Source of the DNA: Nymphaea colorata
Taxonomy: Eukaryota
DNA: 64,000 bases
Direction of reading: 5' to 3'
Assembly: GCF_008831285.2 (NCBI RefSeq)
Contig: NC_045138.2
Location: 4,092,001-4,156,000, forward strand
Shown here: in pieces, positions 4,260 to 51,798 of the stretch
Layout of the letters: the number at the start of each line of letters is the position of its first letter
Numbering within the stretch: position 1 is the stretch's first letter
Program-made: the position numbers and the translations under genes
The notes under the pieces: generated by a model
Told to the model about the DNA's origin: nothing
Seen by the model: only the letters and a program-made list of their open reading frames with translations
Databases searched by the model: none

Positions 4260-4271
4260 CTTTATATATTG
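4260..4271 (+). promoter_or_regulatory. Candidate TATA box of NLR copy 1 (counterpart at ~10547-10557 in copy 2)
   Basis: CTTTATATATT lies ~90 bp upstream of the ATG, followed by a CT-rich 5'UTR-like tract; the position is conserved in both copies. Confidence 0.45.
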
Positions 4272-4351
4272 CACTTTGTCTTTCTTCCCTCCCCCACCTG
4301 AAAATTGCTTCTCCTCCTCTTGCTCTTCCATCGACAGAGAAACCGGGGAAG

Positions 4352-5348: not shown

Positions 5349-8185
5349 TAGGAGATGATTAGTGTTTTTTTATATCATGCTGCTGAAAATTTTCTATTCA
5401 TTTTAAATTGTCTGTAGTGTGTGTGGATTTAAAGTCAGTGACAAAATTGTAACTAATCTTTTTGTTAAATATGCAATTTTTGCATTTTATCGGCTCTTGA
5501 TTTTCTCTCTCTCCCTTGTTTGATTTGGAACTTGCGAGATTTTTATGTCATGTTTTCCATCTACAAAAGTAGAGAAAATGTGTAAGAATCAATAGATTGC
5601 AACTATCTTCAGCAAACGTGATAGAAGCAGGAGAGTGTGTTGCCGTTTGACAGGATTTAGTTATCTTAGTGTAGTTTGTAGCCATCTGGCTTAGCTTGGA
5701 AGCAGTGATTAATTTCTCAGCAGGTCATAACTTTCTCTTTCACCCACCACACATTTGGCCTATATATTAATTCTTGGCAGATCCAACCACTGTTTTACTT
5801 TCCATCCATATATATATATATGTGTGTGTGTGTGTAAAAGATCAAATCTGCTCAATCCCATCCATATTTAAAAATGTAAGGTAGCTAGCAAAGATGATCA
5901 CCTCCTATTGTATTCTTGAGCCCTCCATCTAAGGCTAATTTTGATAAACATTGCTCTTTATGAAGGCACTGCAATGATATTCCCTCGTGTGTGGTTCACC
6001 AGCACCTTAGTCTCCCTCGTGAACAATGTTTTATTTACGTCACACTCTTTCAAAGTAAGAGAATTATCTGAAGTACTACCAGTACTTACTCTTCATTTAA
6101 TTAAGCCCAACATCCAGATATGTTTGAATTTTGGAAAAAAGAGGATTGCACCAAATCTTATGATGTTAAATGAAGTGTTTGTCTCAAATAAACGAAAGTT
6201 AAAGTTTTTATACCCAAAAAATATTTGCAAAAAGTATCAATTATGTACATATCGGTACCTACCGGCACCATATATAAATGATACATGCGGTGCTGTTTGG
6301 ATCAAATAGATGGACACAATACTAAAAATTACCTTTTTCCTTTTACTTTAAGGAAATTTTAAACAACAATTTTAAATATTATTTTGTTTTATATACACCA
6401 AGAATATAACCCCACGTTTGGTACATGATCCTTTAGGCAATGTTCAAAGTTTTGTTCGCACTGATTCTTTATCTCTTTTCTCTCTTTCTCTCTCTCTTTC
6501 TCTCTTTCTATCTCCCTCTCGCCCTTGGCAGTTGGCCAAGGGTTTCATTCTCGATTGCTATATGAGGTTTTCGTTTTCATGGCAAACCCTCCGCCGGTTG
6601 CCGATTGCTATACATGCGGTGCTGTTTGGATCAAATAGATGGCCAATGTCGTTTGCCTGAATGGGTACCAACACTAAAAACACAACAATTTTAAATATTA
6701 TTTTGTTTTATATACACCCGTTGATGCATGCCGGCCCCACGTTTCCCATTACTTATAAAACACATACACACTCTTTCAGAATTGCATGCCGGCCCCATGT
6801 ACAAAGTTTTGTTTTTTCATATCTTATGATATTCACAAAGTTAAAAACACACACACTCTTTCAGAATTACGCACATATATATCTTTATATTCGCCGTCGG
6901 GTTTCACTAAAACACATACACACCCTTCCAATCTATTATTCCAAAAAAATTACAAATACAAAGAACTAACAAAATGTTCACTTACAAAGCTGGTTATATG
7001 GGTGATACTGGTGCACAAAATTTTTTTACACAACGACAAAAATACCTCTCATTCACATTAAAAAAACAAGTTTTTTTGTAGAATACAAATCAAAATCAAA
7101 ACTAATGAAATGACTATAAAAAAACACATGTTTTTTAATTACAAAAACTCTTTCTTTTTTGTTACTGTGTATCGCACGAAAAGCGACGCACGCAACTCTT
7201 TCTTTTTTTCCTCCCTCTCCTCTGCTATGCAAGACCGGCAGTGGCGTCCCCTCTCGCACTGAGTCTTGATCTCTTCTCTCTCCCGCTCTCTCTCTCTCTC
7301 TCTCTCTCTCGCCCATGGCAGTTGGCCAAGGGTTTCATTCTCGATTGCTATACGAGGGTTTCGTTTTCATGGCAAACCCTCCGCCGGTGGCCGAGGGCTT
7401 CTTTTTCATGGAAAACACCTTTAATCTGCGGTGGAAGTTCACGGAACTAAAATCTCTTAATGGTGAATGAGAGGGTTTTTGCACACAGACAGGTCCTCCA
7501 TGCTTCGGATGGGCTCTCAGATACTTTCGATCAGATTAAAGGCTTCTATTGCTGGTAGTCCTAACTGAAACATCGAATAAACAAGTTCATTGTACATTTT
7601 CTTTTTCCGATTATTTCTTTCTTTCATCTCTTGTAAAGTTTCATCAAGGATGCTTAGAATGTGATATTTTTAGGCACAGTATATTTTTAGTAAAGGTTTT
7701 TCATACTTTTAGGGACGGTTTTAAACATTGTTAAAGGGAGATTTTGTTAATAAAAGGTTTTAATAGAATGTTGTAGAAATGCTACTCCAGCTGAACAGCT
7801 TAGGGAGAAGAATGAAGTATTTGCTCCTAAATTAAACACAAGATGTCAAATATTTGTAAAGTCCCCAGTGATTCTGATCAACAAAGTAGTGTATTTGGGA
7901 ATTAAAAATTTATAATTCACACTACAACAAAATACAGACCTAAGGTCGTTCGAAGCTGATTATATACAGCACATCCATGTATGTAAATTTCATAAAAAAC
8001 CATGATTAATACAACCAGAAACTTTATGTAAGGATAAGAACGGGAACCACAAAAGGAATATTTGAGGATTCGATAAAGATAAAATTTGTCAGTCTATATA
8101 TACATATCGTTATAACCAATGTATCCTTTTAAATAGTAAAAAATATTTTCATTTTTTTGCCCCGCTTATAGCATTGTGTCTTGAT

Positions 8186-8520
8186 CTCATAAATATTTTA
8201 TTATCTCACAAACATTATCTCATACTTATTTTTAGTGTTACCACATATATCCGTCCATTACCTCATTATTTCATAAATATTTTATTGTCTTGTAAACATT
8301 TTCTCATACTTATGTTTAGTGTTATCTCGTGCATCCATCTGTTATCTTATTATCTCATAAATTTTTTGTCATCTCATAAATACTATCTCATACTTATGTT
8401 TAGCATTATCTCATACATCTATATGTTTGTTATCTCGATATCTCATAAATCTTTTGTTATCCCATAAATATTATCTCATATTTATTTGTTATTTTATACC
8501 TATTTGTTATCTCATGCACA
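8186..8520. repeat. Degenerate ~84-bp tandem repeat, ~4 copies
   Basis: The unit start TCATAAAT recurs at 8187, 8271, 8355 and 8443 with matching downstream sequence (TCTCATACTTATGTTTAG). Confidence 0.8.
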
Positions 8521-9850
8521 TGCATATGTAACGTTTTGGCATAAAAGTAAATGTACATGTTGACAATAAGGTTCACCCTCGGCGTATGCGCGCACGTAAC
8601 TCGATCTTAGGGTCGTTGGTAATATTAACATACAATGTTGACGTTTTGAACCGTTGGGTCATGACCTGCCCTATGTCGTCTCTCTCATCATGTTCGGACT
8701 TATTAAGAACAGATTCATGGAACACTTGCCAGGGTGTTTTATAAATCTGCCATCTTATTTTAAGCAGGTTCATAGGATAGTAACAATATAGTCAAACAAC
8801 TTGGTAAAGACTCACCAATCCCTCACGAAGAAGTCGACTTTATAAATGTGGGTGCATTTAATGAACCATTTTTTTCCTTTCATAATTAAGCAAAAGTAAT
8901 TAAAACAAAAAAAAACCAAATAGAATATTCTCGGTTATAAGAGTGAAGATCACGAGCCACTACGCTTTTCCATATATCTGGCACCATGTTCCCTTACGAC
9001 TTGATTTAGGAATTTTTTTTTTACTCTCCATTTTAACACCATTCATATTCATATTCTGTGAGCGCATTTCGCCTCTAACTTCTTTTTCTTAATTGTCGAT
9101 ATTTGAATTTTTTTTGTTAAATAAAACACTAAATTAAGTCAAGATAAACTTGTGGGAGTCAAAAGCAGCAGCTAGATCATGACCCAACTAATCCAGACCC
9201 TCCGCACACCACATCCCATGTCAGCAGACTCTTTCTTTACAACTGCCAATTGTAATTGGCTTCATACTGTGCTTGGTATCTAATCTCATGTAGTCTTTGT
9301 TGTGATCCCAATTGTCAATTAATATGTTTATTCAAATTTTGCTCTTCGGCATGTCTAACTTCTTTGGCCCAGTCTGAACTCGAACGGGTTGCGCTCACCT
9401 AGCCTACTAATCCCAACATATTATATTCTTGGATCAAATAGCGCGTGTTGAGCCAACAATGGCCATGCAGACCTGGCTGGATCAAACTCAAGACCTTCAA
9501 ATTAAGGCAGGTCAAGGGTTTATTATTCAAGAACATCTCAAAGCATCTTTCAGTCCTCTAGGGCATCTTTCAGGTAACGTAGAAGATTAGGATTGGGGGA
9601 ATTTTCCCATATTTATTTAACAGCAATTGTGGATCTTGCAAACCTCTAGGGCACATGTGCTCACCACAGTCCAAATTAAGCGGTGGGCATGTTAAACTTC
9701 TGACTTTCTTATAAAACTAACAACTAGGATTAAAGAAATGTACTTTGATGCCCCGGGTATTACACGCTAAAAATGTGCTTTCAAAATATAATATACTTGG
9801 ACTTTTACGATACATGGAGGGCAGGAATGGCTAAAGGATTCCACCTTCTC

Positions 9851-9896
<46 letters not shown>

Positions 9897-10636
9897 ATAT
9901 ATATATATATACATATAATTTCTTAATGTAACTTGTTTTAGACTGACTTGAATGGTGGTAGACTTGTACGATGTGGCAAAAAAACATGTGAATTTACATT
10001 TTAAAATGTACTTAATTTTTAATTCAATCAACGATACATTTCAGCAACTGATTTATGATAAAAAAAACATGTGTATTTTTGTTTTAACATGTAATTTCTT
10101 GAGGCAAAACGCTTGCCGGTGATTTTAGAGATGTAGAAGGCTTGGGTTGGGGGATTTTCCATTTAGCATCAAGTAAATTAACTAATTTAATTTTTTCTTT
10201 AGCACAACTTAATAAAAAAACGTATCATTGAGTATTAATTTTTTTCATGTGCTCCAATATTATAAACAAGTTTCACCAGATTGGAGAGGAAACCAGGTCA
10301 CATCACTACTGGTGGAAAAATTCATGTGAATGACAGAAATATGGAGGGAAAAGGAAGCAGCAATCTGAATGTAACTAGTTTAGAGGAGAGAAAGAGCCGT
10401 CCATGGAACTAACGAAAGAGCGTGGAAGCCAAGGGCTGGACGTCTTTTTACATTATTGTCTAAATTAAAGGGAGTGAGAGAGCTGCTTTATCTACTCTCT
10501 ACCTACATGATGGAGCTAATAGTCAACGGTAATTGTGGCAGCGTTTTCTTTATATTTAGTACCTTGCCTTTCTTCCCCGCCACTTGAAAATTTCTTCTGT
10601 TCCCTTGCTCTTCCATCTACTTACAAATCCGGGAAG

Positions 10637-12101
10637 ATGGCAATCGCAATCGACGCGCTCTCAGAAACAGCTCTTTCTAATCTGTTGGGGGCTGTAAGCA
10701 GATTGTTAGAAGACAAGTTGGGCCTCATCTGGAGTGCCAAGGACGATCTAAAGCAGCTCGAGTGCAAGCTGGAGCACTTGCAGAAGGCCCTCAAAGATGC
10801 AGATCACAAGCGGTTTTTCAGCAAGGAGCACGACATAGATCTGGAGAGAGAGTTGAAGGACGTTTTTTATGATGCCCAGATTACCATCGAAGAATACCTA
10901 ACCACAATTGTGCTTAGCAAAAAGGGGAACATCTATTCTCTTGCTTTATGGAACAAGGTAAGAAGACTCTTGATCACTTTATGCTCTTGCTTTGAAGAAC
11001 ATCTATCTGCTTTTGACCAATTTGGAACTGAAATTAAAAAGATCAACCAAAGGCTTGACGAAATCGAAGAAGCTAGTAAAATGGTGGATTTACTCAACAC
11101 AGCACCAAAATATACTAGTGGTGAAGCTCTTATTTGTGGTGAACATGACAATCCTCGAGAGATATCCTATCACGTTGGTACTGCACAACCACCCATTGGC
11201 AGGGCACACGATAAGGAGAAACTAAAAGAACTCTTGTTTGATGGCTCTATAGGAAAACATGGTGTCTCTATTGTATCCATTATAGGTCAAGGCAGCATTG
11301 GGAAAACTACTCTTACAAAAATGGTCTTTAATGAAGTTGAGGAACAGTTTGGGAAACGCAGTGGTGGGTTTGTGTTTCAGAGAAGGTAAACCGTATGAGT
11401 TTGTTGCAAAAGATACTAAAAGAAATATGCAACGGATCGGAAAGAAAACTTGAGGGCATCACTTCCTTTAGTGACTTGTGCATACGACTACAAAGCGAGC
11501 TCGCAAAGAGCAAGTTTTTGTTGGTCTTAGATGACGTATGGGAATTAGATTGGTGGATGGGAGCGGTAGAGGATGTCCTGATGGGGGGTGCAAATGAGAG
11601 CAAGATTTTAATCACCAGTGGAAACATAGAAGTCTCCCAATGGATTGGTGTATAAATTACCCGAAATGACTCTCGATGAAAGTTGGAGATTGTTTCTGAA
11701 TGTGGCAATGAAAGAAGAAAATGAATTGGCAAGTCACAATTTGAAAGATATTGGGGAGAGGATGGTGAGCAAGTGTGGTGGGATTCCACTTGTTGTCAAG
11801 AAAGTAGGGTGCTTAATGCGTACAAAAAAGATGACTAGAGATCACTGGGAAGCCGTTGAGAATAGTGATATCTGGAAATGGGCGATGCGTGCCCCATCTT
11901 CCACTGGTAGCTTTCTTTGACAGACATGGCTTCCCCAATCTAAAGTCTACCAAGTCCCTGGTAGACGTCAATATTACTCCCCAACAAAAAGATGCAGTAG
12001 CAACATGTCCCACGGATGCAAAGGAACAGATTGCCTGCCTCTCGAAGCTTGATCAGTCGTTGATAATTTGCAGAAGTCATGTACCCGATCTGCCGCAATG
12101 A
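10637..12101 (+). pseudogene. CC-NB-ARC (Rx-type CNL) resistance-gene pseudogene, copy 2
   Basis: ATG 10637. Motifs seen: ELKDVFYDAQITIEEY, P-loop GQGSIGKTTLT, RNBS-A WWVCVS (after a frameshift at ~11360), kinase-2 KFLLVLDDVW, RNBS-B SKILITSGN, second frameshift at ~11650, RNBS-C ESWRLF, GLPL-like CGGIPLVV, stop at 11918-11920. No RNBS-D or MHD. LRR-like remnant (GFPNLKS...LSKLDQSLIICRSHVPDLP) to 12101. Confidence 0.93.
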
Positions 12102-12549
12102 TAGGAGATGACTAGTGTTGCTATATCATGCTATGCTATTGAACTTTTTCTTTTTATTTCAAATTGTCTGAAATGTGTGTGGTTTTAAGATCAGTGAAGA
12201 TTGCAAGTAATATTTTGGTTGAATATGCAATTTTTGCATTTCAGCGGCTCTTTTCTCTCTCTCCCTTGTTTGACTTGGGTGATGCAACTTTTTTAGATCA
12301 TGTTTTCCATCTCTAACAGTGGGGAGAATGTGTAAGAATCAATAGAGTGAAACTGTTTCCGCAAACCTGACTGAAGCAGGAGAGCATACTGCCGTTTGAC
12401 AGGGATCAGTCAGCTTGGGTGTGTTTTGTAACTATCTGGCTTAGCTTGGAAATAGTGATTAATTAATTTTTTGATCAGGTCATAATTTTCACTTTCACCC
12501 ACCACACATTTGGGTTATTAATTCTTATCGCATCCAACCACCATTTTAA

Positions 12550-12617
<68 letters not shown>

Positions 12618-13569
12618 AAAAATAAGGATCCAAATTTGTTCGATCCATATTTAAACCAGTAAGGTAGCTAACACATATGATCACCTCCTATTGTATTGCT
12701 GAGCCCTTCACCTAAGGCAAATTTTGGTAAAAAATTCTTTGTAAGAAGGCCAACAATGGTATTATGTCATGCATGATTCACCTGCCTCCCTCTCATGAAC
12801 AATTTTGTATCTACGCCGACACATGCACCTTTTCAAATATTGTACTAAGCAAGGGGATCTCAAGTATGTACCGGTACTTAATCTTCATTTGACTATACCC
12901 AACATCCAGTTACAATTGAATTTAGGAAAAAACAATATTTCACTAAATCTTATGATGTTAATTAAGTGTTTCTCTCAAATAAACGAAAGCTAAAGTTTTT
13001 AAACGAAACAAAAAAGAAAAAAGTTATGTATTACGTGAACATCAGTACGTACCGGCACCATATATAAATGATACATATGTGGTGCTGTTTGGATAAAAAG
13101 GATGGCAATGTCCATTGGCCTGAATCGGTACCAACATTAAAAGTTGCCTTTTCCATTTAAGAAAATGTAAAAAGTAATTTTAAATATTATTTTGTTCTAT
13201 ATACACCAATTGACGCATGCAGGTCCCGATTAATTGGCTCATACAATAAAAGCTATGTTGGCCAACTTATAAAGGTATAGATTCTTTGAGCGACGCTCAA
13301 AGCTTCATGTTTTTCATATTTAATGATATTCACAAATTTCGAACGCAAACAGTCAGAAAGTTGCGCTTATATTCTTATATTCACCTTCAAAGATTTGTCA
13401 TGTTAGCCATATGGCGGGATCTCTCATTCTTCTTTTCCATATAAACACTGCCAGCGGCTCCTGTTTCCAGTAGCAGCTGCACCAAATAGCTCCCCATATT
13501 TGTGCCAATGAACCTCAAGCAATGTCTCTCCCCACTTACGCAAAACTCGCCCATTGCCAAAAATAACAA

Positions 13570-22979: not shown

Positions 22980-30450
<7,471 letters not shown>

Positions 30451-32444
30451 TCAAATTTAAGTCAATTTGCTGAGCATCTAACCAGTGGAATCTCTCTCTC
30501 TTTGTAAACTGAAACGTGTCATATCAGCTTTTATTGATCTGTTGAGAGGACCATCAGATCTGACTCGGTAGAGAATAGTAAAGCAACAGATGCAGTTCGA
30601 TTTTTTCTTCCTTTTAACTTTTGTACACATAGTAGACAATGAAAAGAAAGACTTAAATAAAAAAGAAATTCAAGCAGGAATTGCATTCTGCAGTAGCTAA
30701 GGAGGCAAAAGTTGCAGAGATGGGCTCAACGACAGCACATTGCTTTATCAATGTGAGCAGCAACCAACTTGATGAATACTGGATTTTATTTTCCAAAAAA
30801 GCTAAAACTATAAACCAGAAAAACAGCTTTATAAAATTTCGTATGGTATTTTATTGACATATAAACAAACACATTTAGATCTTATTCCTTTGTATGATGC
30901 GCTAATCGTGGACCGGTAAATTTTGTTGTGGAAAGGGACAACAAAGAGCAAAAGAGGGAGATAAAATAGTGAGAAAGAAGAAATGGAAATGAAAAACAGA
31001 GAGAGAGGGAGAGAGAGAGAGAGTCAAGAACATTCGCCAGCCTTTTCCAGTTCTAACTATAAAAAAGTCACATAACTGATTAGTTTAGATGGCCAAATTT
31101 GAAGATCAATCAATAATTATCTGGTATAACTTTAATTAGGTGTACTTATCTTGGTCAAGAAAATGATTGCTAATTGATGGACAGCCATATGATATTGTTA
31201 CAATATAAGTAGAGAACGCAATGGGAATGTGGTTCAATCACATGAACAAACTAACAATAATGTGTAATAAGGTTTGTTACGCTTAAAGAAATGTTTGCTA
31301 TTAGACTCTTAAGCAGGAGAGCGCTTTCTCCAAAAAAATTGTGGAACCAGCTAACTGAACGTAGGAATGAAGATGATGCACATCAGACTTCACGGGATGC
31401 TGACTTCTATATTCTTTGTGCCAAGCTTAGGACATGCAGTTCATGGACGCCTTGAAGATCATGAAGAGAAAGACATTATGAAGGGAAATTCAAAAAAGAG
31501 GGCAGACATGTTGATAACCACCTATTTACACATGTTCAATGGGTAGACTATTGGTTATGTAAGTTATACTGCAAGGTTTGGTGGTGTTGAAACTGACATC
31601 TTGGATGTGCATAGTCATTCATGCATATCTATTGACATCTTGGCCTTGAATTTTCCATTTATATGAGATGTGATGCCTGTGGCTCATAGTGCAGAACTTG
31701 TTTGGCTACCTGGCATTCAACAGTATATTCATAACATAAAGAACTTCAAAATTAATGTGGGGGAATGAGGAGAAGGACTTGTTTTCAGCTACACATAGAA
31801 AGTGAAATTTTACCCTCTATTATTGTCTTGGGAGTTAAACCTTGCTGTGACATGTCAACATGAAAAGGGGAAAAAATTGAGGGGTGTCATGTCAACATGA
31901 GAAGTGCTTCGCTAAGAGTAACATGGCAGCCATGTGTAAAAACAAGGTGCAGGGCCTCGCCATCCAGCCAAAACTTCTTGGTGGTTGGGGCCCCTGAGGC
32001 AATATTTCTTTAGTGAAGAAATCTCATTCCTCATGGGTGGACTCCTTTTTTGTCACTCAAGTGTCTCCGTTTTTGCTCTCTCTATCTCTCTGTCTCTCTC
32101 TCTCTCATACAAACTTCTGTCTCTCTCACATACACATATGCATGTGTGCATGCATATTCACACATACTGAGTAAAGAAGAAAAAATTGAACTCGGAAATG
32201 TCAGATGGAAGTTTGAAGTTTGATGAAATGGATAGAAAGTACTGCAGTTGCTGCTTCAGGCCATGCATTTGTTAAGCTGCGCAAACTTGCTCCATAGATT
32301 GCACTTACAGAAAAAAGATGAAAATTGGGCCATGTTCCAGAAATAAAAGGAGGCTATGTCACCCAATCAGTTGAAGTTACCATATGGAATGAAGACACAC
32401 ACACATATATATATATATATATCACAAGAACAAGGAAAGTGGAA

Positions 32445-32501
<57 letters not shown>

Positions 32502-32669
32502 GTAGTAGACATTTAAATGCCAAAGGGATAAGGAACAATTTCAGCCATTGATCTCTTGTAGATCAATAGTTGATAAAGTGTGAACTAATAATAAATTTCG
32601 ATGTTGACCTATCATCTTTTTCTCTTTGCTTTTCTTTCAACCACGGATCAGGAAAAGATTAATTTGTAT

Positions 32670-32765
32670 TCTATTCAGGGCTGCAACCAGCTTGTTGGAA
32701 CAGAAGGTGGGCCTCATCTTGAAAGCCGAAGACAATTTCAAGGTGTTCCGAATGAAGATATAATG
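32670..32765 (+). pseudogene. Third NLR CC-domain remnant
   Basis: GGCTGCAACCAGCTTGTTGGAACAGAAGGTGGGCCTCATCTTGAAAGCCGAAGACAAT aligns with 4405-4462 and 10690-10747; translates AATSLLEQKVGLILKAEDNFK. Confidence 0.7.
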
Positions 32766-33078: not shown

Positions 33079-33930
33079 GTGGTCATGAAATCCATAGTGG
33101 ATAATTGTTGGTTTAGGTTCATTCTTAGGCTTGGTTCTCCTAATTGGGTGTCAGTTTCAAGAACGACAGTTAAGAGAGATGTCATGAAATTATATGAAGA
33201 TGAAAAGAAGAAATTGCTTCTTGTCTTCAAGGGTGTTGAGAAGATTGCTTTGACTACAGATATGTGGACATCAAACCAACAACTTGGATATATGGCATTA
33301 ACAGCACATTTCATTGATAAAGATTGGAAGATGCAACATCGTATCATCAACTTTACCGAAGTTGAGCCACCTCATACTGGGGTAGTTTTAGCAAATGTAA
33401 TTGCTAAGCATCTTGCAGGAGTGGGAGATTAAAAAGAAAATAATATCTATTACAGTTGACAACGCTTCATCAAATGATGTTCTTGTCAGAAAATTAAAAG
33501 AAAACATGGAAAAGAGCGGCATCAACTTGTATCATGGAGGTAAATTTTTTTCATGTGCGATGTTGTGCACATATTTTGAATATAATGGTACAAGATGGGT
33601 TGAGTGCCATTAAAGATGAAATCATTAGCATTAGAGAGGCAATTAAATATATCAAAGTGTCACCTTCAAGACTTCATGGTTTTGCAGCTGCAGCTACAGA
33701 GTTGGATCTTTCAACGTCAAAGAAGTTAGTGCTAGATGTACCAACTAGATGGAATTCAACATATTTTATGTTGGAAAGAGCTCTTGTATATAAAGATGCT
33801 TTTGCAAGATATAGCATGGAAGACCCAGGTTTGGTATGGTTGCTTGGACCCGAGGATTGGGAAAAAATTGCAGTGATATGTATTTCTTTCAGGTTGAGGA
33901 CGAATCAAGTGAATATATATCATTAGAATG
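33079..33930 (+). pseudogene. hAT (Ac/RICESLEEPER-like) transposase fragment with two frameshifts
   Basis: Motifs SRTTVKRD, ALTTDMWTS, YMALTAHFID, ITVDNASSND, HVRCCAHILN and DVPTRWNSTYFML spread over ORFs 33079, 33401 and 33534. The BED finger and C-terminal dimerisation domain are missing. Confidence 0.95.
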
Positions 33931-34577
33931 ATTCAAGTTGCCTCTTGGTAATGCTTTTTTTTTGTTGTTTTGTTTTCTTTTTTTTCTTGATCTAATGTGA
34001 TTCTAGTGTCTGTTTCAGTTGCCTCTTGTAGTTTTCTAGTGTCTGTTTCTTTGATGTCTTTCACTCTTTTTTTCTGTTGCTAAGTTTGTCATCCATAGTT
34101 TCACTGTTTTTCTTGTTGAAAGCTTAGAAAGCTTTAAGTCAAACTAGTTGATATTAGTATTCCATCTCCAATGCAGAACCACGCAGGAGAGCTTTTTTTT
34201 CTTGCAGATCTCTCACTCTATGGATTGCTGCCTAATCTGATGACAGAACATTGCTACTTTACCTGTTTTGTCTCATCCATTTATTGGCACCTATGGCATA
34301 ACTTGAATGGGCATCCACACACTTTTTTGCTGTCACAATATCAGATTCTATGACTGCTGTTCCTTGTTGAATCTTAGAAGTGTAAACATTGGTTTTGTTA
34401 GAATATATATATATATATATATATATATATTCCATCACATAGTATTGTTTTGAATACATAAGCATGTACATGTGTAGATCTTTTGCATGTTTGTGTTCTT
34501 TCTCACTGTTGTTTGTGTTCTTTCTCACTGTTGTTGGTGTTCTTTCTCACTGTTGTTTGTGTTCTTTCTCATTGCAG

Positions 34578-34811
34578 TTGTTTGTGTTCTTTCTCACTGT
34601 TGTTGGTGATAGGAAGCTGAGTAAGGTAATGGTTTGTATTCTTTTGCTACTTCGGTACAAATGATCAGTTATCACTAAGCCATGCTGAATCATGTCTAAA
34701 ATTGTAAGTGTCTTTTGTTTTTTGGGTCATGGTTTTCTCCAGGTTGTTCAGGAAAATGTTAAGGAGCTGCTGTATTATGTTGTTGCTTTTCTGCAAATGA
34801 CTGAAGAGCAG
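34578..34811 (+). pseudogene. Captured importin-9-like fragment (2 exons, 1 intron)
   Basis: Exon 34578-34625 LFVFFLTVVGDRKLSK, GT-AG intron 34626-34742, exon 34743-34811 VVQENVKELLYYVVAFLQMTEEQ, then a GT donor. Resembles plant importin-9 as recalled (QLFEFLLTIV...NVKELVYYTIAFLQMTEQQ). Confidence 0.75.
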
Positions 34812-34871
34812 GTAGGTTTTGATCTCACAAGTGAATCCATATTCTATACTTTACTCAAAGATCCAGTAAGA

Positions 34872-35016
34872 GATGACAAGACTATCAAGGTTGGTTGAAT
34901 ATATAAGTGTTTGATATTACCTAAAGATGGTTGCTAATCTCTTGTGTGGGTAGGTGTGGGATGCGGTTATTGGTGCTAAACAATATACGTTTGAGGGTCA
35001 TGAAGCTCCTGTTTAG
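34872..35016 (+). pseudogene. Captured TOPLESS/TPR WD40 fragment (parts of 2 exons, 1 intron)
   Basis: DDKTIK (34872-34889), 64-nt GT-AG intron with a GCTAAT branch point, then VWDAVIGAKQYTFEGHEAPV* (34954-35016). Matches the TPL segment DDKTIKVWDAATGVKRHTFEGHEAPVYS as recalled. Confidence 0.85.
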
Positions 35017-35844
35017 GTACTTGCTTCAAAAGGGTATGTTAATCGACATACCCTCAAAAGGATGCTGAAAGGGTATGGCACCTGCGTGCTTCAGGTATGT
35101 TTTTTGGAATCGAGATGCAGATTGTGCCATAAATTTTGCTTTTTCATATTAAGTGCTCATAATACCTTTGGAATGTTTTTTCTTCTCCCCTAATGCTTTT
35201 TTTTTTACTTTGTTTCACGTTGATTGCTTCCATGTTCTACGAAGAAGTGATCCACCATTTGTCTCTTCGGCATCTTTCCTGCAGCAAGGATTCTCTTCAT
35301 TTGTACGATAACTATAGCTTGGTTAATTATGTTGTTACAAGTTGATTATGATATCTTCACATTCTTTATTGTCATATTATATGGCTTGTAGATGATTCTA
35401 TTATTTATATTTTATTAAGCTCAGTCATATTGTGCGTCTGGTTTAATAATTTCTGTTTCTATCAGATGGAAGAAATAAAAAATGTTCCAAATGTAGTTTC
35501 ATCGAAAGGGTATGTTAATCGAGCCTTAAACGAGCTCGATAAGGATACGAGTAATAATTGAGCTCACGTGTTCGAGCATTAGTCGAGCTTCACGTATTCG
35601 AGCCTTAGTCGAGCTCACGGTCGAGCTCGAGCTCAACAAGTATGGATGACTCAACTAAACGAGCTTATTGAGCTTAATCAAGCCGAGCTCGAGCTCGAGC
35701 TCGACAATTGACTATCGAGTCGAGTTCGAGCTAGGATAGTCGAGCTATAATCGATTTTGAGCCGAGTCGAGCTCATGTCTTACTTAGTTGAGCCGAGTTC
35801 GAGCTGACCGAGCTTGGGCTCGACTCGGCTCGTGTTCAGCCCTA

Positions 35845-41557: not shown

Positions 41558-44031
41558 TTAACACATAGAAGAGGTAGCAGCAAGGCCCATAGGAGTCGAC
41601 AGGATGTAGACGCCTCCTTTCTCATAGCCGCCACCAATCGTCTTCCTAGTTTGCAAGTCCTGAAATGAGCATGAATCAGGGTCAAAAATAATATGACAGT
41701 GTAAATCAGTAGTCAACTGTTTAACCGAGAGTAAATGAGATGGAAATTTAGGAGCATATAAAACATGTGGAATAGTCATAGACTTTGAGAGTTTCACATC
41801 TCCAGAACCCAATATGGGTGACAGTCTACCATCTGCAATTTTTACATGACGTGGCTGGGGAAATTTATGCAGAGTAGTAAAAGACTCGTGTCTGCTGCAA
41901 AAATGTCTTGATGCTCCTGAATCAATAATCCACGAAGTACCTGAGTCAAACATGGAAGGACCCGCTGAGAAGGCTCGATCAGTCACCGCTGTAGCAGCTG
42001 AAGCCTGTGAGGCTTTGTGTGCCAAAATTTGCTCATACTCAACTCTGTGAATGCTAACTGTCTCTGGAGCTATACTAGGCGAAGAGTCCTCCACTGTAGG
42101 AGTGGCAGTCTGTGCAGAACCCATAGACGAGTAAGTAGAGCTCTTGCCCTGTTTGGTGACCATATTTCTTCCTTGTGACAAGGAGGATGGGCGACCATGT
42201 TTATCCCAACAGCGATCCTCTAAATGACCAATCTTACCACAATAGGTGCATTGGAACCTCCCACGGCCCCCAGTTCCACGACCTATACCTCTTCCTCTTG
42301 TACTATAGGTGGAGCCATGACCACGACCACCCCCCACAGCAAGTGCAGAGGCAGGCGTCACACCAGCTGGTTGAGACAGACTAATAGCAAGACGGCTAAG
42401 TCTGTTGTACGCATCAGAGAGGTCAGGAATTTCACTTCCAGTGAGCATCTGATCCTTAGCAGCAGCATATTCAGGAGAGAGACCAGCAAGAAACTTTGCA
42501 ACCATAGTAGGTTCAAAGTGTGACTTATAACACGATTTGCACGGAGGACGCAAGAATTTCAAACGTTCATAAGTGGCTTTAACTGTGGCAAAGTATTGAG
42601 ATAAATCCTGACTTTTCTGTCGGAGATTGTGCAATTCTTCTTCAACTTGAAGGATTTTACTCACATTCTTATCTTGAGAATATGTCTGTCTAAGAAATTC
42701 TCACATCTCCTTCGCAATAGTATAGTACGTAATAGTAGAAGCAATTTGAGGTTGAACACTATTCATAATCCACGACATTACCATGTTGTCGTCCTCTTCC
42801 CAGGTTATGTACTTCCCTAACTTGTTAGTAGGCTCATCCTCTTCAATTATGTGTCTCTTTCGATGACCTTTAACAGACAACATAAAGGATCTGGACCACA
42901 GTTCATAGTTGTGTCCATCTAATTTAACTGTAGATCCATAAGAGAAGGGATTTCCACCTCCTTTGTGATCGTTACCACCCTCGGAATTTCGGCTCTCAGC
43001 CATAATAAATCACAGCAAGGATAAGAATACCAAGATAAACTGTATATAAGCAGCAACTTCACGAGGACAACAGGAATAACACGAAACGAAGGAACATGCA
43101 CACGTTTCTTTCACATCCCCAAACAGCAAATAAAAGTAGCCTGCTGAAACCACACCAGAAACGGACAGAGAATAACTTGCTGAAAATAGTGACTTGCTGA
43201 AAATAGCCTGCTGAAAAACACACCAGAAAATAACAACTTGCTGGAAATAGCTTGCTGAAAAACACGCCAGACAAGAACAGGGAATACAGCCTGCTGAAAA
43301 ACACGCCAGAAAATAACTTGCTGAAAAAAAACCTTACAAACAAGGTCTGCCGCTGCTTCTACCATTCCCAACCTCAACTCTTAAACAGCACGTCCATATC
43401 TTTCGTAAAAAAAAATCAGCAAAACATGTTCTGCGTCACCAAAACTTCTGATCATACCTTACACCGCAGCCACTAACAGCATAACGTTCCACTCAAATAC
43501 TCTCAACAGCGTCCATCAACAGCCCATAACCTTGTCCACGCACTCCACTAGAGGATCTGATCACGCCTTCCACATAGGCGAGATCAGGTCCTCTTCCACG
43601 CAAGAAGAAAAATAGGGGAAACCAGCGATCACGCCAGCAACAACTTGAGATGCTCACGTACAAGAAGTCTGAGACGATTGGTTCATGCCAGCAGACTTGA
43701 AGGTTCACGCCAGCAGACTGAATCAATACCGCAACAAGGAAGGCACGAGAGGAGCACGCCAGCAAACTTGAGTCGATCACACCAGCGTAGGCTCTGATAC
43801 CATGTTACGTGATGAAGAAGGGGAGAACGAGAGAGGGAGAGAGAGAGAGAGAGAGAGACGAAAAAGATATATTGATCTCGTGCTCTAATCTCAACTTAAA
43901 GGGAGATTAGGGCACGGCTGAGGCAGTTACAAGAGAAGGACAAATAAAATATTAAAAGGACAGAAAGGAACCCTAACTCTTAAATAGTCAAATAACTACC
44001 ACATTTAAAAACAAACTTTCTAATTTCAACA
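41558..44031 (-). mobile_element. Ty1/Copia element A, 3'-truncated: 5' LTR 43803-44031, PBS, gag-protease
   Basis: PBS-Met at 43791-43802; LTR TGTTAC...TTCAACA. ORF from ATG 43003 with one in-frame TGA (42701-42703); zinc knuckle CTYCGKIGHLEDRC; protease WIIDSGASRH. Tandem repeats in the leader at 43120-43330. Confidence 0.93.
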
Positions 44032-46745
44032 AATAGCTCGGGTGACATCTAATAAATGGCGATTTTTATGTTCGGCCACGTCATTTTGGGGAGGAGTATA
44101 ACTACAGGACGTCTCATGAACAACACCCTTGCCCCGCAGGAAGTCATCCAGAGATTGGGAGACATACTCCCTGGCATTATCAGTACGGAGTGTCTAAACA
44201 GAGGTCTGAAATTGATTTTCGACAAAGGCAACAAAATTTTTGACAACGACAGGAACCTCACTGCGTTCTTTCAACAAATACACGAACGTACAATGGGAGT
44301 AGTCATCAATCAGAGTCATAAAGTAATGGAAACCACGACAAGTGGGTACTCCCGAAGCACCCCAAACATTAGAGTGAACCAAAGCAAAAGGACGAGTGGT
44401 TTTATTGAGAAAAATAGGGTACGAAGCCCTAACATACTTAGCAAACTGACACACTTCATATGTGAAGGAGTCCATGGAAACAGAAGTAAACAACCTAGGA
44501 AACAACTTCTTAATCAACTGGAATGGGAGATGTCCAAGACGCTCATGCCATCTCATAATGCTAGACCTGTCCTCCACGCCCGTCGACTGTCTGCTAGTGG
44601 CTGAGATGAGAGCAGAGGCAACCTGTACGGGGCAGTCTGTAGAGGCCATCAATAACCGAACCAATCCCAATCTTCCTCCCCGTCACCAAGTCCTGCAGGG
44701 TACAATGATCAGCAGAGAAAATTAGATTACAATTGAGTTCTTTGGTGATACTACTGACAGATAACAAATTCACAAGAATATTGGGAACATGAAGAGCATT
44801 ATGCAAAAGATATTTATTTAATAAGGACAAACTTCCTTTTCCAGCCACAGAGATCGAGGACCCATCAGCCATAGATACGCGTTGCTGCCCTGAAGACAAT
44901 TTGTACTCTTGAAACATCTTAGGGTTCCCTGTCATATGATGAGTAGCTCCACTGTCAACTACCCAATCACCAAGTAAGGGATTACCTTGATCACTTGTGG
45001 CAACAAGAGCTTGGGCTAACTGAGCTCCCTCAAACGTGGAGGCATCCTCCTTAGTAGTAGATAACCGGCTGATGTAAGCTTGTAATTCTTTGATTTGGTC
45101 AGAGGAAAGCTTCGGTTTTTCAACACTGGGAGAGCTAGTATCAGCCATAGGAGGACCCCGCCTACCAGAGGGAGGACGACCATGGGTGAGCCTCTTCTCA
45201 GGATGAAGATCCCAACAAAAATCAACTGAGTGTCCCAACTTGTTACAATGACTGCAACACTGAATGGGACGCTACCCAGTCCCTGGAGCACGGCCAACAA
45301 AAGCAGAGGGTGAACTACCATGACTGTAGTCAATATGCATCACGTGACGGCGTTGTTCCTCAGATTCCACCCGGGCATACACCTCCTCAATTCCAGGGGT
45401 CTCGTCACAGTTGAGAATTTGACTCCTAATGGATTCAAACTCATCACGCAGACCTCCCAGAAAAATAAAAGTGCGGTCCATCCATTCTTTCTGCCAGTAC
45501 AGTTCATGATCAGAACCACAATGCCAATCATCATTCACATGATAATCCAGTTCCTCCCATTTAGTCTTCAGGGCTGCATAGAAGGATGCCACAGACAAGT
45601 CACCATGTTTAAGAGAATAGATGTTGTGTTTAATCTGGTATGTACGCAGGACTCTCTTTTTACGACCATACATCTTCGCAAGCACAGTCCACATGTCATA
45701 TGAGGTCAACTTTCGCAAAATAAGGGGCTGAATATCAGCAGAAACAGAACTAATAATCCAAACCTTAACTTGACTATCTTCCAACGCCCAAGTCGCCCAT
45801 CCAGGATCAGTTTTACTAGGCGCAGGTTTCTCCCTCGTGATATAGGGCAGACGATCGCGACTAGTGATCCCAATTTCCAGCGCAGCAGACCAAAAGAGAT
45901 AATTGTCTTTGTTCAGCCGAATAGAGGTGACTTGAACAGACAAGTTTTCGCTCTTGGTATTGCTGCCCGTATCAAAGTTAACATCGGTCTTGGAGGTCAT
46001 CTCTTCAGCCATAACAACCACAAAAGAAATCCAACAGTCAGAGAATACCAAAAAAAAAACGCAGGAGGAGGACCCGGGCACTATGGCACTTTGCCTACAA
46101 TGGAGGACGGGCAGCAGCAGAGTAGCGGGATTCCCGGCAAGCAGTCACAGGGCGTGGAACAGGCCAGGCGACTGCGGGCGGCGTCGAACAGCGAGTGGCG
46201 TTGGCGCAGCGGTGTCAGACCGGCGGACGGCAGCGGCGCACGCCAGGCAACAGCGGACGGCGGGCTGCGTCAGCAGCGGGACGTAGGGCGACGTCAGCGG
46301 CGGTGGGACGGCGGTCTACGTCGGTGGCGGTGGGACAGCGGGCTGCGTCGGCGGCGGGGCTAAGAACTCCAGCAAGATCAGACTTAGGGTTCAAAAAAAA
46401 AACTCTAAATCACACACGAACGAAGAAGCCAAACAGCACGATTTTGGCTATGATACCATGTAGAAACACGCAGCGGAAGAAGAGAAAGGTAAACAAACAC
46501 AAGATTTACGTGGAAAACCTCGGGATTAGGTGAAAAACCACGGGGAAGCTCTAACCTAGGGGCAAAACCGCAACCCTAGGAGAGAGAAAACTTAATTCAC
46601 TTAATCAACAATAACAATAAGTCATTAGAATAAAAGATGGAGGAAGAGAGACCCGCCTAGGGAACCGAGCCCGTCCTCGGTTCCCGCACCCATGGGTACC
46701 GGGTCCATATCCGGACCCGGTTCCCTATTACACGGTATTCTAACA
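44032..46745 (-). mobile_element. Ty1/Copia element B: 5' LTR 46459-46745, PBS, gag, protease, 5' part of integrase
   Basis: PBS variant GCTATGATACCA at 46447-46458; LTR TGTAGA...TCTAACA; gag ATG 46012; CSHCNKLGHSVDFC; WVVDSGATHH; WHERLGH; integrase cut at AEHKNRHLLDVTRA by element A. Confidence 0.93.
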
Positions 46746-48540: not shown

Positions 48541-50208
48541 CTATCCAGCTTCCTTCATCAGATAAGTCAATAAGTGTAGCATTTCATAGATCTCTTCAAT
48601 CTGATAATGAGTCTTGTCTTCTGGTGCAAAGTAGTGTCTTCTGTTTCTTATCTCAATCCAACTAAGTGCCGGTTGCTTTTTCATTCCCCTCTCCTTTATA
48701 AGGACTCGTAGCTGACTAACATGCTTCCATCTTCTAGCACCAGCATAGACGTTTGATAGACTCACATACCTCGCAACATTTGTAGGCTCCAAACTGAAAA
48801 GGGACTCAGCAGCTTCACTAGCAAGGTCCGCATTGCCATGGATCAGACAAGAACCAAGCAGTGCACCCCACATGCCCACATCAGGTTGAGAACTGATGCT
48901 TTTAAGCAACTCAACTGCTTCATTTAGACGACCAGACCTCCCAAGTAGATCAATCATGGCTGCGTAATGGTCTGATCTAGGACGTACTCCATAGTGTGTC
49001 TCCATCAAGATCCAATATTGATGCCCTTCTGATACTAAACCAGCATGGCTGCATGCAGCTAGAACACCAAGAAAGGTAACGTCATTTGGTTTCACACCTG
49101 ATGTGCTCATTCTATCAAAAATTTCCAAGGATTCTCTTGCACAACCGTTCTGTGCAAAACCAGTTATTAATGCATTCCATGAAACAATATCTCTTTCGCA
49201 CATCTGTTTGAAGTGTATTAAGGCTGAGCCTATGCATCCACACTTCGCATACATGTCAATCAAAGCATTTGAGATAAAGGTGTTGGCCTCAGGCATTGTT
49301 CTAATGATGTGTCCATGAAGCTGCTTGCCACATTCAATGAGGCCTAGACTTGAGCATGCACTTAAAACACCAACAAATGTAAATGCTGTAGGAGGAACAA
49401 ACTCTTTTTGCATTTCAGAAAAGAGCTCCAATGCCTTTTCACCTTGATCATTTTGAGAATGCCCAGTGATTAATGCAGTCCATGAGACCTCATTTTTTAC
49501 TGGCATGCGCTCAAATAGCTGGCGTGCCTCTTCTAACTGATTTAACCGAGCGTAGCTAGAGAACATTGAAGTCCATGATATTACATCTCTTTCCTCCATT
49601 CTATCAAAGACTATCATTGAAGTCCTTAAATCTCCGCATTTTCCATAAGCATCAATGAACGAATTTAACATGATCAGGTTCAGCTTAAGCCCCATAACCA
49701 CAACAGCACCATGAATCTGCCTGACCCATTCCAGAACCTTGAATCTGGAACAGACATTTAGTAGGCTAACAAGCGTGAACTTATCAATCCACATTTTTTC
49801 TTTCTGGAAGCTGCGGAAAATACCAATGGCGCCTTCCCAATTTCCACATCGAGCAAACCCGGATATCATTGAATTCCATGTGACTACATTCCTCTCAGGC
49901 ATTTGGTTAAAAAGCCCTTGTGCATCGACTAGCAGCCCATTTCTTGCATACCCACCAATGATAGTGTTCCATGTATATGCATTTCTCTCAGGCATTTCGT
50001 CAAACAGTCGGCGGGATGATGAAATTGAGTTGCATTTTGCGTAGACTTCGACCAACCGGTTAGCCAAGAAAACATTCAAATCAAGCGCAGTCTTAATAAG
50101 AGCAGCATGGACTGATCTGCCCAGTTTGAGATTGGTCTCTTTGATGCATCTATCCAGCAAGTATGTGTACAGCGAGCCACAACCTTTCTCACTAGCATGA
50201 GACTGCAT
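48541..50208 (-). CDS. PLS-class PPR protein with E/E+ domain, no DYW (probable organellar RNA-editing factor)
   Basis: Intronless ORF (first ATG 50208) with repeated ERNVVTWNSMISG/DVISWTSM/DIVSWNALITG motifs and E domain WGALLGSCLIHGN...YVSLSNVYA...GMKKQPALSWIEI. Confidence 0.93.
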   Translation of the reverse strand: MQSHASEKGCGSLYTYLLDRCIKETNLKLGRSVHAALIKTALDLNVFLANRLVEVYAKCNSISSSRRLFDEMPERNAYTWNTIIGGYARNGLLVDAQGLFNQMPERNVVTWNSMISGFARCGNWEGAIGIFRSFQKEKMWIDKFTLVSLLNVCSRFKVLEWVRQIHGAVVVMGLKLNLIMLNSFIDAYGKCGDLRTSMIVFDRMEERDVISWTSMFSSYARLNQLEEARQLFERMPVKNEVSWTALITGHSQNDQGEKALELFSEMQKEFVPPTAFTFVGVLSACSSLGLIECGKQLHGHIIRTMPEANTFISNALIDMYAKCGCIGSALIHFKQMCERDIVSWNALITGFAQNGCARESLEIFDRMSTSGVKPNDVTFLGVLAACSHAGLVSEGHQYWILMETHYGVRPRSDHYAAMIDLLGRSGRLNEAVELLKSISSQPDVGMWGALLGSCLIHGNADLASEAAESLFSLEPTNVARYVSLSNVYAGARRWKHVSQLRVLIKERGMKKQPALSWIEIRNRRHYFAPEDKTHYQIEEIYEMLHLLTYLMKEAG

Positions 50209-51798
50209 TCCTCCTCCCAATGCAAGCTAAGGAGGAGGCAGAAAACTAAATTAGAGAGGTAGAATAAAATGGAACTAATAATAATTTTACATATCGATCT
50301 AACAAAGGTACGTCTCTAGGAAAGAAACCTTTAGATAGTTATTCCAAAGCATACCTTATCAAACATCTTATATGTGCTTGGTGTCCTGAAAACCATTTCT
50401 AATCAATTCATTGCTGGCAGTATCAAACATGTCGTGGTTAACTTTGCTCTTTGAGTCCTTACTTCTTAACTATTCCACAATTCGTAGTTCTAACACGAGG
50501 AGCCATGTTAAGGGGCTGAAGATATGACCTATTCAACAATAAATCAGCTACTTTGTGACATGTGACAAACTCTGTTGTGTATACACACTTGCACTCTTAC
50601 CAAACAATCTTTTATGCTTGCGTTGATTTATTTTTTCCTTGATCTTTTATGTATAGTTGTATGCTTCATAATTCTTTTGTTTTTTGTTTCACGTCAAATA
50701 TTTTTCTTTCTAGGTCTAAAGGGTGCCCCATGTTCTTTGTTTAACACGCCCCCTCGTGTTTTACTTTTTTAGATGAAGCGACATTTTTGGTATTCAAACA
50801 ATGGGCATTTCCATCATTTTATGTGAAAAGTGACTTTTGTTTTTTATTTTGGGTTTCCAAAAAGTAGATTTCACTTTCTATTTTTGGTGACGACGTCAAT
50901 GAATCCAATAACTCAATTTGGATTAGAAATCCAATCGAACCATTCCAAATAAATTAATATCTAATTAAGAAATTGAATCATTTTCGGATATAAAAAACAG
51001 CACTTGATTGGAGTAGGATTCAAATCGATTTACTTTTAAATAAATATTCTATATTGAACACTCTTACATTTTCAAAAATGGTCCAGATTTGGTTCAAAAT
51101 TCGGATTCAGATGTGAGTTTTAAGATTTGATTTGTGAATCTGGATTTCATAAATTTCTTCCCTTATATTTGAACTTTAATTTAAATATATGTAAATATCC
51201 AAATGAAACAGATACAGTCAAGAGTATATCTGATTCAAATCTAATCTATTTACATCTCTAATTTGTAAACAAACTGCCCACTATTAGGGCCTAAGGATCC
51301 AGCTTAGCTCATAGAGTTGGCCAGTTGGGCTTAAGAGATGTTAGCTGCCTTTGACCAAAGCACACAAACGGATCATTAGAATCTCGTCCCCGAATATGCA
51401 CAGATATTAAGGACGTCCAAGAGACGACACCTTTGTAAACCATATCATCGAACACTTTGGTTACCTACTTGGGCCTAAGGCCCGCCATCGGGTTGGTTAC
51501 AGGTATCAAACCCGAAACGGGCCAGGCTGGGACCACAAAATCGCCGTCGGCTTCTTCGGGCTGGGTACTAGCAGCCTCATAACCTATATAATTCTAAGAA
51601 TATAATGGCAAAATTTGCATTAACCATTAAGTGATGGCTGTGATAAAACAGTTTAACGACGAAAAACCGGAGGAAGTGTTCAAGTAAAGAATCTCAATGA
51701 TCAATAAAAAAAGTTTCCCACTGGGCTTTACTATCAAACTGCAAAACTAGCTTTTGGAAAGAGGAGCTCATCTGCTCATTCAGAAAAACTCAAAACAT

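What the first reader, a model, noticed from the sequence alone, without database searches (positions are those of the whole stretch)
33930..35844. hAT derivative with intron-containing fragments of at least two unrelated genes (importin-9 and TOPLESS)
Seen: between a hAT transposase remnant and a hAT terminus lie same-strand exons with intact GT-AG introns. Two are importin-9-like and, 60 bp later, two part-exons are TOPLESS-like. More unidentified exon-like pieces occur at ~34208-34350, ~34830-34866, ~35020-35095 and ~35466-35520. Retained introns indicate DNA-level capture rather than retrocopying. Inference: a Pack-hAT that strings several host exons downstream of its own transposase, a possible source of chimeric transcripts or siRNAs against TPL and IPO9.
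Basis: partly seen in the sequence, partly recalled or inferred. Interest (0 to 1): 0.82.

Follow-up and report, generated by a model that had tools for sequence, protein, structure and literature searches.

The report
Broken hAT transposon carrying three gene fragments
A broken jumping gene (hAT transposon), likely of a water lily, holds short intron-containing pieces of TOPLESS, of the ubiquitin ligase RKP and likely of importin-9, which were likely stitched in stepwise by error-prone DNA repair and likely copied to several places; this is a clear example of a known kind of gene-fragment capture.

Summary
Largely confirmed, and of a known kind. A hAT transposase remnant (33091-33881) is joined by a 6-bp overlap to what is likely its own last exon (33893-33931). 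About 1.45 kb of cargo and a true high-copy hAT end at 35844 follow. TOPLESS (34870-35015) is confirmed by homology and by host mRNA reads. Importin-9 (34578-34811) has a spliced GT-AG intron but only weak homology hits (E 0.07-0.5). Contigs from two organisms show variant copies of the 34600-35500 block at about 3-8 times single-copy depth. Corrections: the left TIR and target-site duplication are absent. The '35020-35095 exon' is mostly a patchwork of short copies of the 30 bp before it (39 of 54 bases; 0 of 2000 shuffles), like polymerase-theta filler. TOPLESS probably sits inside an earlier captured piece. No chimeric splice joint appeared among 152 RNA reads laid; siRNA was not testable. 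Links from cargo to terminus or transposase in other copies fall short of the 31-base bridging rule. Closest known: grapevine Hatvine-6, maize Ds2/Ds-l4, Pack-hATs. The scan noted similar hAT captures in other genomes.

The parts
33091..33881 (+). hAT transposase remnant (middle of the catalytic region; N-terminus, BED finger and C-terminal half missing; frameshifted)
   Evidence: X2 loose end before 33091 and X2/X4 loose ends behind 33881
33876..34058 (+). likely the hAT's own last intron end, last exon (33893-33931, 12 codons plus stop) and 3' UTR; joined to the transposase remnant by a 6-bp overlap at 33876-33881 (internal deletion)
   Evidence: X1 depth 2241, like the transposase bins; 27 RNA reads spliced onto 33893; its first six residues recur only in the last exon of full hAT L010 among 628,436 residues
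34059..34209 (.). unassigned low-copy DNA ending in a polypyrimidine-AG
   Evidence: X1 depth 32 in bin 34115-34171; no RNA there
34210..34488 (.). captured piece of a single-copy-depth locus, not shown to be an exon; includes an (AT)14 run; right edge approximate
   Evidence: X1 4457-nt contig at 43.7x and X2 213-nt contig at 6.5x both match 34210-34319 with 11 differences and 1 gap
34488..34608 (+). 22-bp tandem array (5.4 copies) amplified from the start of the first importin-9-like exon
34573..34829 (+). likely importin-9 fragment: acceptor, exon 34578-34625, intron 34626-34742, exon 34743-34811, start of next intron (right edge approximate)
   Evidence: RNA joint of 117 nt GT..AG in 9 reads; weak PDB hits to human IPO9
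34830..34870 (+). left half of unidentified piece W (left edge approximate)
   Evidence: one X2 contig joins 34870 to 35017 (8.5x, 25-base side, letters between not known); 2 RNA reads cover 34834-34869
34870..35015 (+). TOPLESS/TPR fragment: exon end 34870-34889, 64-nt intron, exon start 34954-35015 (WD40 region)
   Evidence: RNA loose ends before 34870 (20 reads) and behind 35015 (26 reads) read as TPL
35017..35046 (+). right half of piece W with a GT donor-like site at 35034; shorter copies join the subterminal repeats right after 35046
   Evidence: X1 joint 35046 to 35571 (79x, 30-base side); X2 loose end behind 35046
35047..35100 (+). patchwork filler: one inverted and four direct 7-10-nt copies of 35017-35046
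   Evidence: 39 of 54 bases covered; 0 of 2000 shuffles; 8 of 2511 window controls reach it, 6 of them in the 22-bp array
35219..35302 (+). one whole exon of the E3 ubiquitin ligase RKP (RNF123-like) with flanking intron DNA; acceptor AG lost in this copy (35218), present in other copies
   Evidence: E 7e-8 to Nymphaea thermarum RKP, 26 of 28 residues identical; RNA reads run on into the next RKP exon
35466..35504 (+). unidentified AG-led piece V
   Evidence: sequence; no RNA depth
35505..35522 (+). exact 18-bp duplicate of 35029-35046
   Evidence: longest repeat in 300 shuffles was 14
35523..35844 (+). right subterminal region with CGAGC/GAGCTC repeats and the terminal inverted repeat ending CAGCCCTA at 35844
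   Evidence: related full hAT L010 has TAGGGCTG...CACCCCTA ends and an 8-bp TSD

Best explanation
This is a left-truncated, internally deleted hAT transposon derivative whose 3' non-coding region holds intron-containing pieces of TOPLESS, RKP and likely importin-9, likely added stepwise at the DNA level by error-prone break repair and likely spread as a non-autonomous Pack-type hAT family. Shown: the transposase remnant, the terminus, the TPL and RKP fragments with their introns, variant copies of the cargo block, the 18-bp duplication and the patchwork at 35047-35100. Inferred order: (1) an element carried the importin-9-like piece plus piece W next to its right subterminal repeats; (2) the TPL piece was inserted into W; (3) a break at 35046 was repaired by local primer-template switching (filler), then by copying RKP and piece V, and rejoined at the 18-bp word; (4) transposase from intact relatives moved the product. 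Inferred pathway: microhomology-guided template switching of the polymerase-theta type. This copy is likely dead: it has no left end, and its RKP acceptor is mutated. It likely makes no protein, because the transposase's stop codon lies upstream of the cargo.
For: Retained introns. RNA reads are donor-type: 32 of 32 carry C at 34989 and 25 of 25 carry G at 35266, letters that the multi-copy contigs lack, and they run on into TPL and RKP coding sequence. Two different X1 contigs cross from the importin-9-like exon into W (34786-34899, 1 difference, 108x; 34768-34899, 6 differences, 49x). One crosses TPL-W-filler (34959-35205, 126x) and one crosses RKP-V (35198-35502, 121x). Single-copy-like contigs are 39-44x. 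In X2, 5 cargo contigs are 31-51x against 6.5x. Shorter forms exist: W joined straight to the subterminal repeats and W without TPL. A 6-bp overlap sits at the transposase deletion. The filler statistic is; templated insertions from break flanks are described as a hallmark of polymerase-theta end joining in Arabidopsis (PMC10923293, passages). L010 shows that this transposase clade uses the same TIR type.
Against: No left TIR or TSD in the window. No listed contig bridges cargo to terminus with 31 or more bases on both sides: the sides are 30 bases (X1) and 8 bases (X2). None bridges the hAT 3' UTR to the cargo in another copy. Depth over 34115-34570 is low (25-77x, one bin 116x), and 2 X1 contigs carry other DNA before 34573, so the transposase-side link may be private to this locus. 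The tool warns that contig depth is not a copy number, and only 16 of 192 pieces were shown. The TPL-less form rests on one contig with a 25-base side. The filler window was chosen after seeing the sequence, and the repeats could be native to W's donor. The importin-9 name is weak. W, V and 34210-34488 are unnamed.
Confidence: 0.66

Rival explanations
1. Two elements fused. A cargo-bearing non-autonomous hAT (importin-9-like piece to terminus) is a real multi-copy family, but the transposase remnant and 34059-34488 belong to a neighbouring hAT copy, and a local deletion joined them. The cargo would then not lie downstream of 'its own' transposase.
For: Depth drops over 34115-34570 and rises from 34571. 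Two X1 contigs have other sequence before 34573 and two behind 34488. A tandem array sits at that seam. No listed contig links the hAT 3' UTR to the cargo in another copy.
Against: The order transposase, last exon, 3' UTR, terminus is that of a single element, and L010 pairs this transposase clade with the same TIR type. No internal TIR remnant was found. The contigs before 34573 may include the donor gene itself.
Confidence: 0.22
2. The fragments were patched into a resident hAT by repair but never moved by hAT transposase. Extra copies come from segmental or tandem duplication, or from a larger carrier such as a Helitron.
For: No TSD is testable. Copy numbers are modest. Most single-copy animal Pack-TIRs are reported to form without transposition (PMC8277862, passages).
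Against: Both immediate left-flank contigs in X1 are at 18-24x with 0 differences while cargo contigs are at 108-236x, so flank and cargo are not co-amplified. Structural variants are joined to the subterminal repeats.
Confidence: 0.1
3. The cargo is a retrocopy of a chimeric or trans-spliced RNA, or an assembly artefact.
For: All named pieces are in the sense orientation.
Against: Both internal introns are present and are spliced out in host mRNA. Independent contigs from run X1 cross three cargo junctions, and one from X2 crosses RKP-V.
Confidence: 0.02

Closest known systems
Grapevine Hatvine-6 (Benjak et al. 2008, PMC2528002; passages read)
   Same: A hAT family whose members share transposase sequence and TIRs, with a variable region matching genic (introns and exons) and non-genic host DNA, unique or shared by few copies.
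   Different: Here the left end is lost, three donors are named within 0.75 kb, and nested order and filler junctions are resolved; the passages read give no junction analysis.
Maize Ds2 and Ds-l4 elements with gene fragments (Du et al. 2011, PMC3260210; passages read)
   Same: hAT derivatives with intron-containing captured gene pieces and filler DNA; capture is proposed to occur by replication errors during break repair.
   Different: The examples read have one named gene fragment per element, with both TIRs and an 8-bp TSD. This one has several donors and keeps transposase sequence.
Pack-hAT / Pack-TYPE elements of rice and maize (Gisby and Catoni 2022, PMC8903248; passages and section 10 read) and rice Pack-MULEs (via PMC12187468 and PMC5861414, passages)
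   Same: TIR elements holding fragments of more than one locus (about 23% of rice Pack-MULEs hold two or more, per PMC12187468).
   Different: packFinder needs two TIRs and a TSD and would class a transposase match over 250 bp as autonomous-derived. Its paired-insertion capture model predicts contiguous flanking DNA; it does not obviously give 80-250-bp pieces joined by microhomology and filler.
Animal Pack-TIRs, gap-filling and FoSTeST models (Tan et al. 2021, PMC8277862; passages read)
   Same: Microhomology-guided template switching followed by transposition of the chimeric element.
   Different: This is a plant element with at least three successive donors and a local patchwork filler.

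Membership tests
hAT superfamily | hAT-type DDE transposase sequence | tested here: met
   E 9e-23 and 2e-13 to a relative with PF02892, PF14372 and PF05699; weak Hermes hits E 0.12-0.16; no significant Pfam hit on the fragments themselves
hAT superfamily | short TIR with subterminal repeats at the element end | tested here: met
   right end at 35844; same TIR type as full hAT L010
hAT superfamily | two TIRs and an 8-bp target-site duplication | tested here: not met
   no left TIR at up to 3 mismatches and no matching 8-mer followed by a TIR in 64 kb; left flank is an NLR remnant, right flank a retrotransposon-like frame
Pack-hAT (Pack-TYPE) | host gene fragments inside the element | tested here: met
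   TPL, RKP, likely importin-9
Pack-hAT (Pack-TYPE) | cargo enclosed by two TIRs with a TSD | tested here: not met
   this copy has one TIR only; sister copies could not be read whole because no genome is held
Pack-hAT (Pack-TYPE) | cargo moved with the element (dispersed copies tied to the terminus) | tested here: inconclusive
   variant junction contigs and 3-8x depth ratios, but terminus links have only 30 and 8 bases on the short side
Pack-hAT (Pack-TYPE) | non-autonomous, no transposase match over 250 bp (packFinder rule) | tested here: not met
   a 791-bp broken transposase remnant is present; rule read in PMC8903248
Retrocopy | introns lost | tested here: not met
   117-nt and 64-nt GT..AG introns retained

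The most novel reading that the evidence does not exclude
This hAT family preserves the successive intermediates of cargo building (W alone, W split by TPL, W extended by filler-RKP-V). The joints are polymerase-theta scars that use 5'-splice-site-like words (AAAGG|GTATG at 35029, 35068 and 35505) as microhomology. That would name the enzyme behind Pack-element capture and explain why captured exons line up in the sense orientation. In sister copies with an intact RKP acceptor, the phase-0 pieces could splice into one stop-free frame of about 124 codons.
Probability: 0.2. Interest if true: 0.62.

Novelty: new member of a known kind. Interest (0 to 1): 0.38.

Why it matters
[quoted passage not shown] Its value is as a worked case in a likely water-lily genome. 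Three unrelated genes are packed into 0.75 kb, shorter variants suggest an order of capture, and one joint carries a strong templated-filler signature. How cut-and-paste transposons pick up genes is still debated (paired insertions versus gap repair or template switching), and a family with intermediates makes the two models directly comparable once a long-read assembly is searched. No regulatory effect on TOPLESS, RKP or importin-9 was shown.

Tried and rejected
No whole genome is held, so intron positions could not be compared on donor genes directly; host mRNA reads served instead. Importin-9 searches without a useful hit: (0 of 4 candidates; 2 hits, both long repetitive proteins, a UCH array and a gag array by Pfam; rejected as spurious; Atlas, no usable hit), and Pfam/NCBIfam. 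Reading across the intron with X did not improve the PDB score (E 0.48). Piece W: no PDB hit, no Pfam or NCBIfam hit; three Atlas tries did not complete. The RKP exon has no PDB hit. No RNA holder of the whole stretch was listed; this is no evidence on expression. Run X23 laid 0 reads (no test). A 26-nt pattern from the last exon found 0 metagenome matches. I first read the 33893 exon as a fourth host gene and rejected that (depth like the transposase; match to L010). I first used G34758A as a donor marker and dropped it, because 23 of 56x in X2 also carry it. The 35017-35094 'exon' was rejected as a whole exon. A search for the upstream half of the right-flank retrotransposon left of the element found none by motifs or Pfam (74 of 106 listed frames were scanned, plus one).

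Full report
Setting. The window is plant DNA of about 36% GC with CC-NLR genes at 4369-13200, a long GA-rich block at about 23000-30200, copia remnants and a PPR gene. No genome is held. The best protein hit of one cargo exon falls in a cluster of 4 proteins from Nymphaea thermarum, N. colorata and Victoria cruziana, so the source is likely a water lily (inference). I laid 5 of 24 listed runs: DNA contigs X1, X2, X4 (organisms A, B, C) and RNA reads X22, X23 (organism A). X1 matches two left-flank stretches with 0 differences over 412 and 610 bases.

The transposon. 33091-33881 encodes a frameshifted transposase piece. It found 65 relatives among 391 candidate metagenome stretches and aligns to residues 151-255 and 301-426 of a 665-aa relative with BED, hAT RNase-H and hAT dimerisation domains. 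The fragments themselves gave no significant Pfam hit. One relative, L010, is a whole 3547-bp element with TAGGGCTG...CACCCCTA ends and an 8-bp TSD, the same terminus type as the window's end at 35844. That end is real: 54, 59 and 77 contigs run off into unrelated DNA behind it. The 17-bp terminus occurs once in the window, with no left partner at up to 3 mismatches and no matching TSD. The left flank holds a decayed CC-NLR start (32663-32760), and an X4 contig follows that flank to 33091 and then continues elsewhere. The right flank reads like a Ty3 reverse transcriptase by motifs (label recalled, no Pfam hit). The left part of the element was therefore likely deleted.

The exon at 33893. Other copies continue the transposase after 33881, and other contigs carry intron-like DNA before 33876, so the two parts overlap by 6 bp. 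27 RNA reads splice onto 33893. Depth there (2241x in X1) resembles the transposase bins (1154-2050x). Its first six residues recur only in L010's last exon among 628,436 translated residues. It is likely the transposase's own last exon, followed by 3' UTR to about 34058. The cargo thus lies behind the stop codon.

Cargo named. TOPLESS: the only hit among 2 candidates was TPR4 (E 0.33); tblastn gives 17 of 20 identities at 34954-35013, and the six residues before the intron match TPR4's preceding word with one change. RNA loose ends before 34870 (20 reads) and behind 35015 (26 reads) read on as TPL, and RNA depth across the intron bins is about what exon-only coverage would give (my estimate). 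RKP: E 7e-8, 1 of 9 candidates; 26 of 28 residues of exon 35219-35302 are identical, and the two differences are restored by letters seen in 19 of 19 and 22 of 22 RNA reads. Importin-9: two phase-0 exons with a 117-nt intron spliced in 9 reads; human IPO9 is the only PDB hit and the top of 4, all at E 0.067-0.48; searches found no importin. My recall of plant importin-9 agrees, but that is not a test; I rate the name as likely. 34210-34319 matches single-copy-depth contigs in X1 and X2 with the same counts (11 differences, 1 gap), but has no RNA and no name. Pieces W and V are unnamed.

Copies. In X1, single-copy-like contigs are 39-44x (flank contigs 16-24x, probably one haplotype), while contigs over 34600-35502 are 49-236x. 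In X2 the figures are 6.5x against 31-51x. The tool warns that depth is not copy number. Firmer: two different X1 contigs (1 and 6 differences) cross from the importin-9-like exon into W, one crosses TPL-W-filler and one crosses RKP-V. At 16 listed positions between 34585 and 35484 all or most X1 depth differs from the window, so this copy has private mutations, including loss of the RKP acceptor at 35218. Against: no shown contig ties cargo to the terminus with 31 bases each side (30 in X1, 8 in X2), none ties it to the transposase side, depth over 34115-34570 is low, and only 16 of 192 pieces and 18 of 69 loose ends were displayed.

Order and mechanism. An X1 contig (79x) joins 35046 to the subterminal repeats and an X2 contig ends the same way: a short form without 35047-35522. 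An X2 contig joins 34870 to 35017 (25-base side, letters between not known): W without TPL. 35029-35046 is repeated exactly at 35505-35522; the longest repeat in 300 shuffles was 14. Right after 35046, 39 of 54 bases are one inverted and four direct 7-10-nt copies of the previous 30 bases; 0 of 2000 shuffles and 8 of 2511 window controls reach this, 6 of the 8 in the 22-bp array (window chosen after inspection). Such flank-templated fillers are described as polymerase-theta footprints in Arabidopsis (PMC10923293, passages). I infer stepwise capture by break repair with template switching, then transposition in trans. Loss by deletion between the 18-bp repeats could also give the short form, but would not explain how the repeat arose.

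Output. Of 152 X22 reads laid on 33830-35530 (about 6% of the run was read), 149 fit only partly; the single RNA joint listed is the importin-9-like intron. TPL and RKP reads carry donor-only letters (32 of 32 at 34989; 25 of 25 at 35266). Two reads cover 34834-34869 and cannot be assigned. X23 gave no test. Splicing the importin-9-like exons to the TPL exon hits a stop; skipping TPL gives a stop-free frame of about 124 codons with no start codon before its last piece. Chimeric transcripts are therefore not shown, and siRNAs were not testable. siRNA cross-talk from captured fragments is a published general idea (PMC12187468, passages; 10.1101/777037, listing only).

Comparison. hAT capture of intron-containing gene pieces is published for grapevine Hatvine-6 (PMC2528002), maize Ds2/Ds-l4 (PMC3260210) and rice and maize Pack-hATs (PMC8903248); template-switch models are in PMC8277862. 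I read passages of each, plus section 10 of PMC8903248, and no supplements; that paper's S1 Table counts multi-locus elements and may hold hAT cases like this one. Searches for water-lily hAT capture (6 papers each) listed nothing on it. In one search none of the 10 listed of 45 papers mentioned polymerase theta. The library is limited, so this is not proof of absence. The element works like a Pack-hAT; this copy fails the two-TIR, TSD and no-transposase criteria, so I file it as a truncated transduplicating hAT derivative. The scan's own index held nothing on this DNA and two hAT captures in other genomes.

Verdict. Real, correctly spotted in outline, richer than reported (RKP, nesting, filler), but a new member of a known kind with no shown function. 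Interest 0.38.

Noticed in passing
window 31004-32410: A separate high-copy repeat (X1 depth 358-1900x, X2 86-309x, X4 only 1-36x) with internal deletion variants (joints 31386-31760, 31387-31481) and no RNA depth; family not identified.
   Followed up: no
window 30530-30800: Low-copy stretch with RNA reads (8 of 8 differ at 30730 and 30738) and open frames on both strands; may be another gene fragment. No significant Pfam or NCBIfam hit on the frames tried.
   Followed up: partly
window 23000-30200: About 7 kb of strongly purine-skewed GA-rich repeat, with a 281-bp direct repeat at 23795-24075 and 30171-30451 (93% identical).
   Followed up: no
window 3909-6401, 10127-13209 and 32663-32760: Two duplicated, frameshifted CC-NLR genes (Rx_N, NB-ARC) and a third decayed CC start just left of the hAT remnant.
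   Followed up: partly
window 41561-46144 and 48544-50226: Two copia-type gag-pol remnants on the minus strand and a 561-aa PPR-E frame on the minus strand.
   Followed up: no
window 33949-33963 and 35191-35205: A 15-bp direct repeat between the hAT 3' UTR and the intron DNA before the RKP exon; could be chance (T-run) or another switch point.
   Followed up: no
L010:1223-4769: A complete 3547-bp plant-type hAT element with both TIRs and an 8-bp TSD in a metagenome contig; transposase broken by stops.
   Followed up: partly
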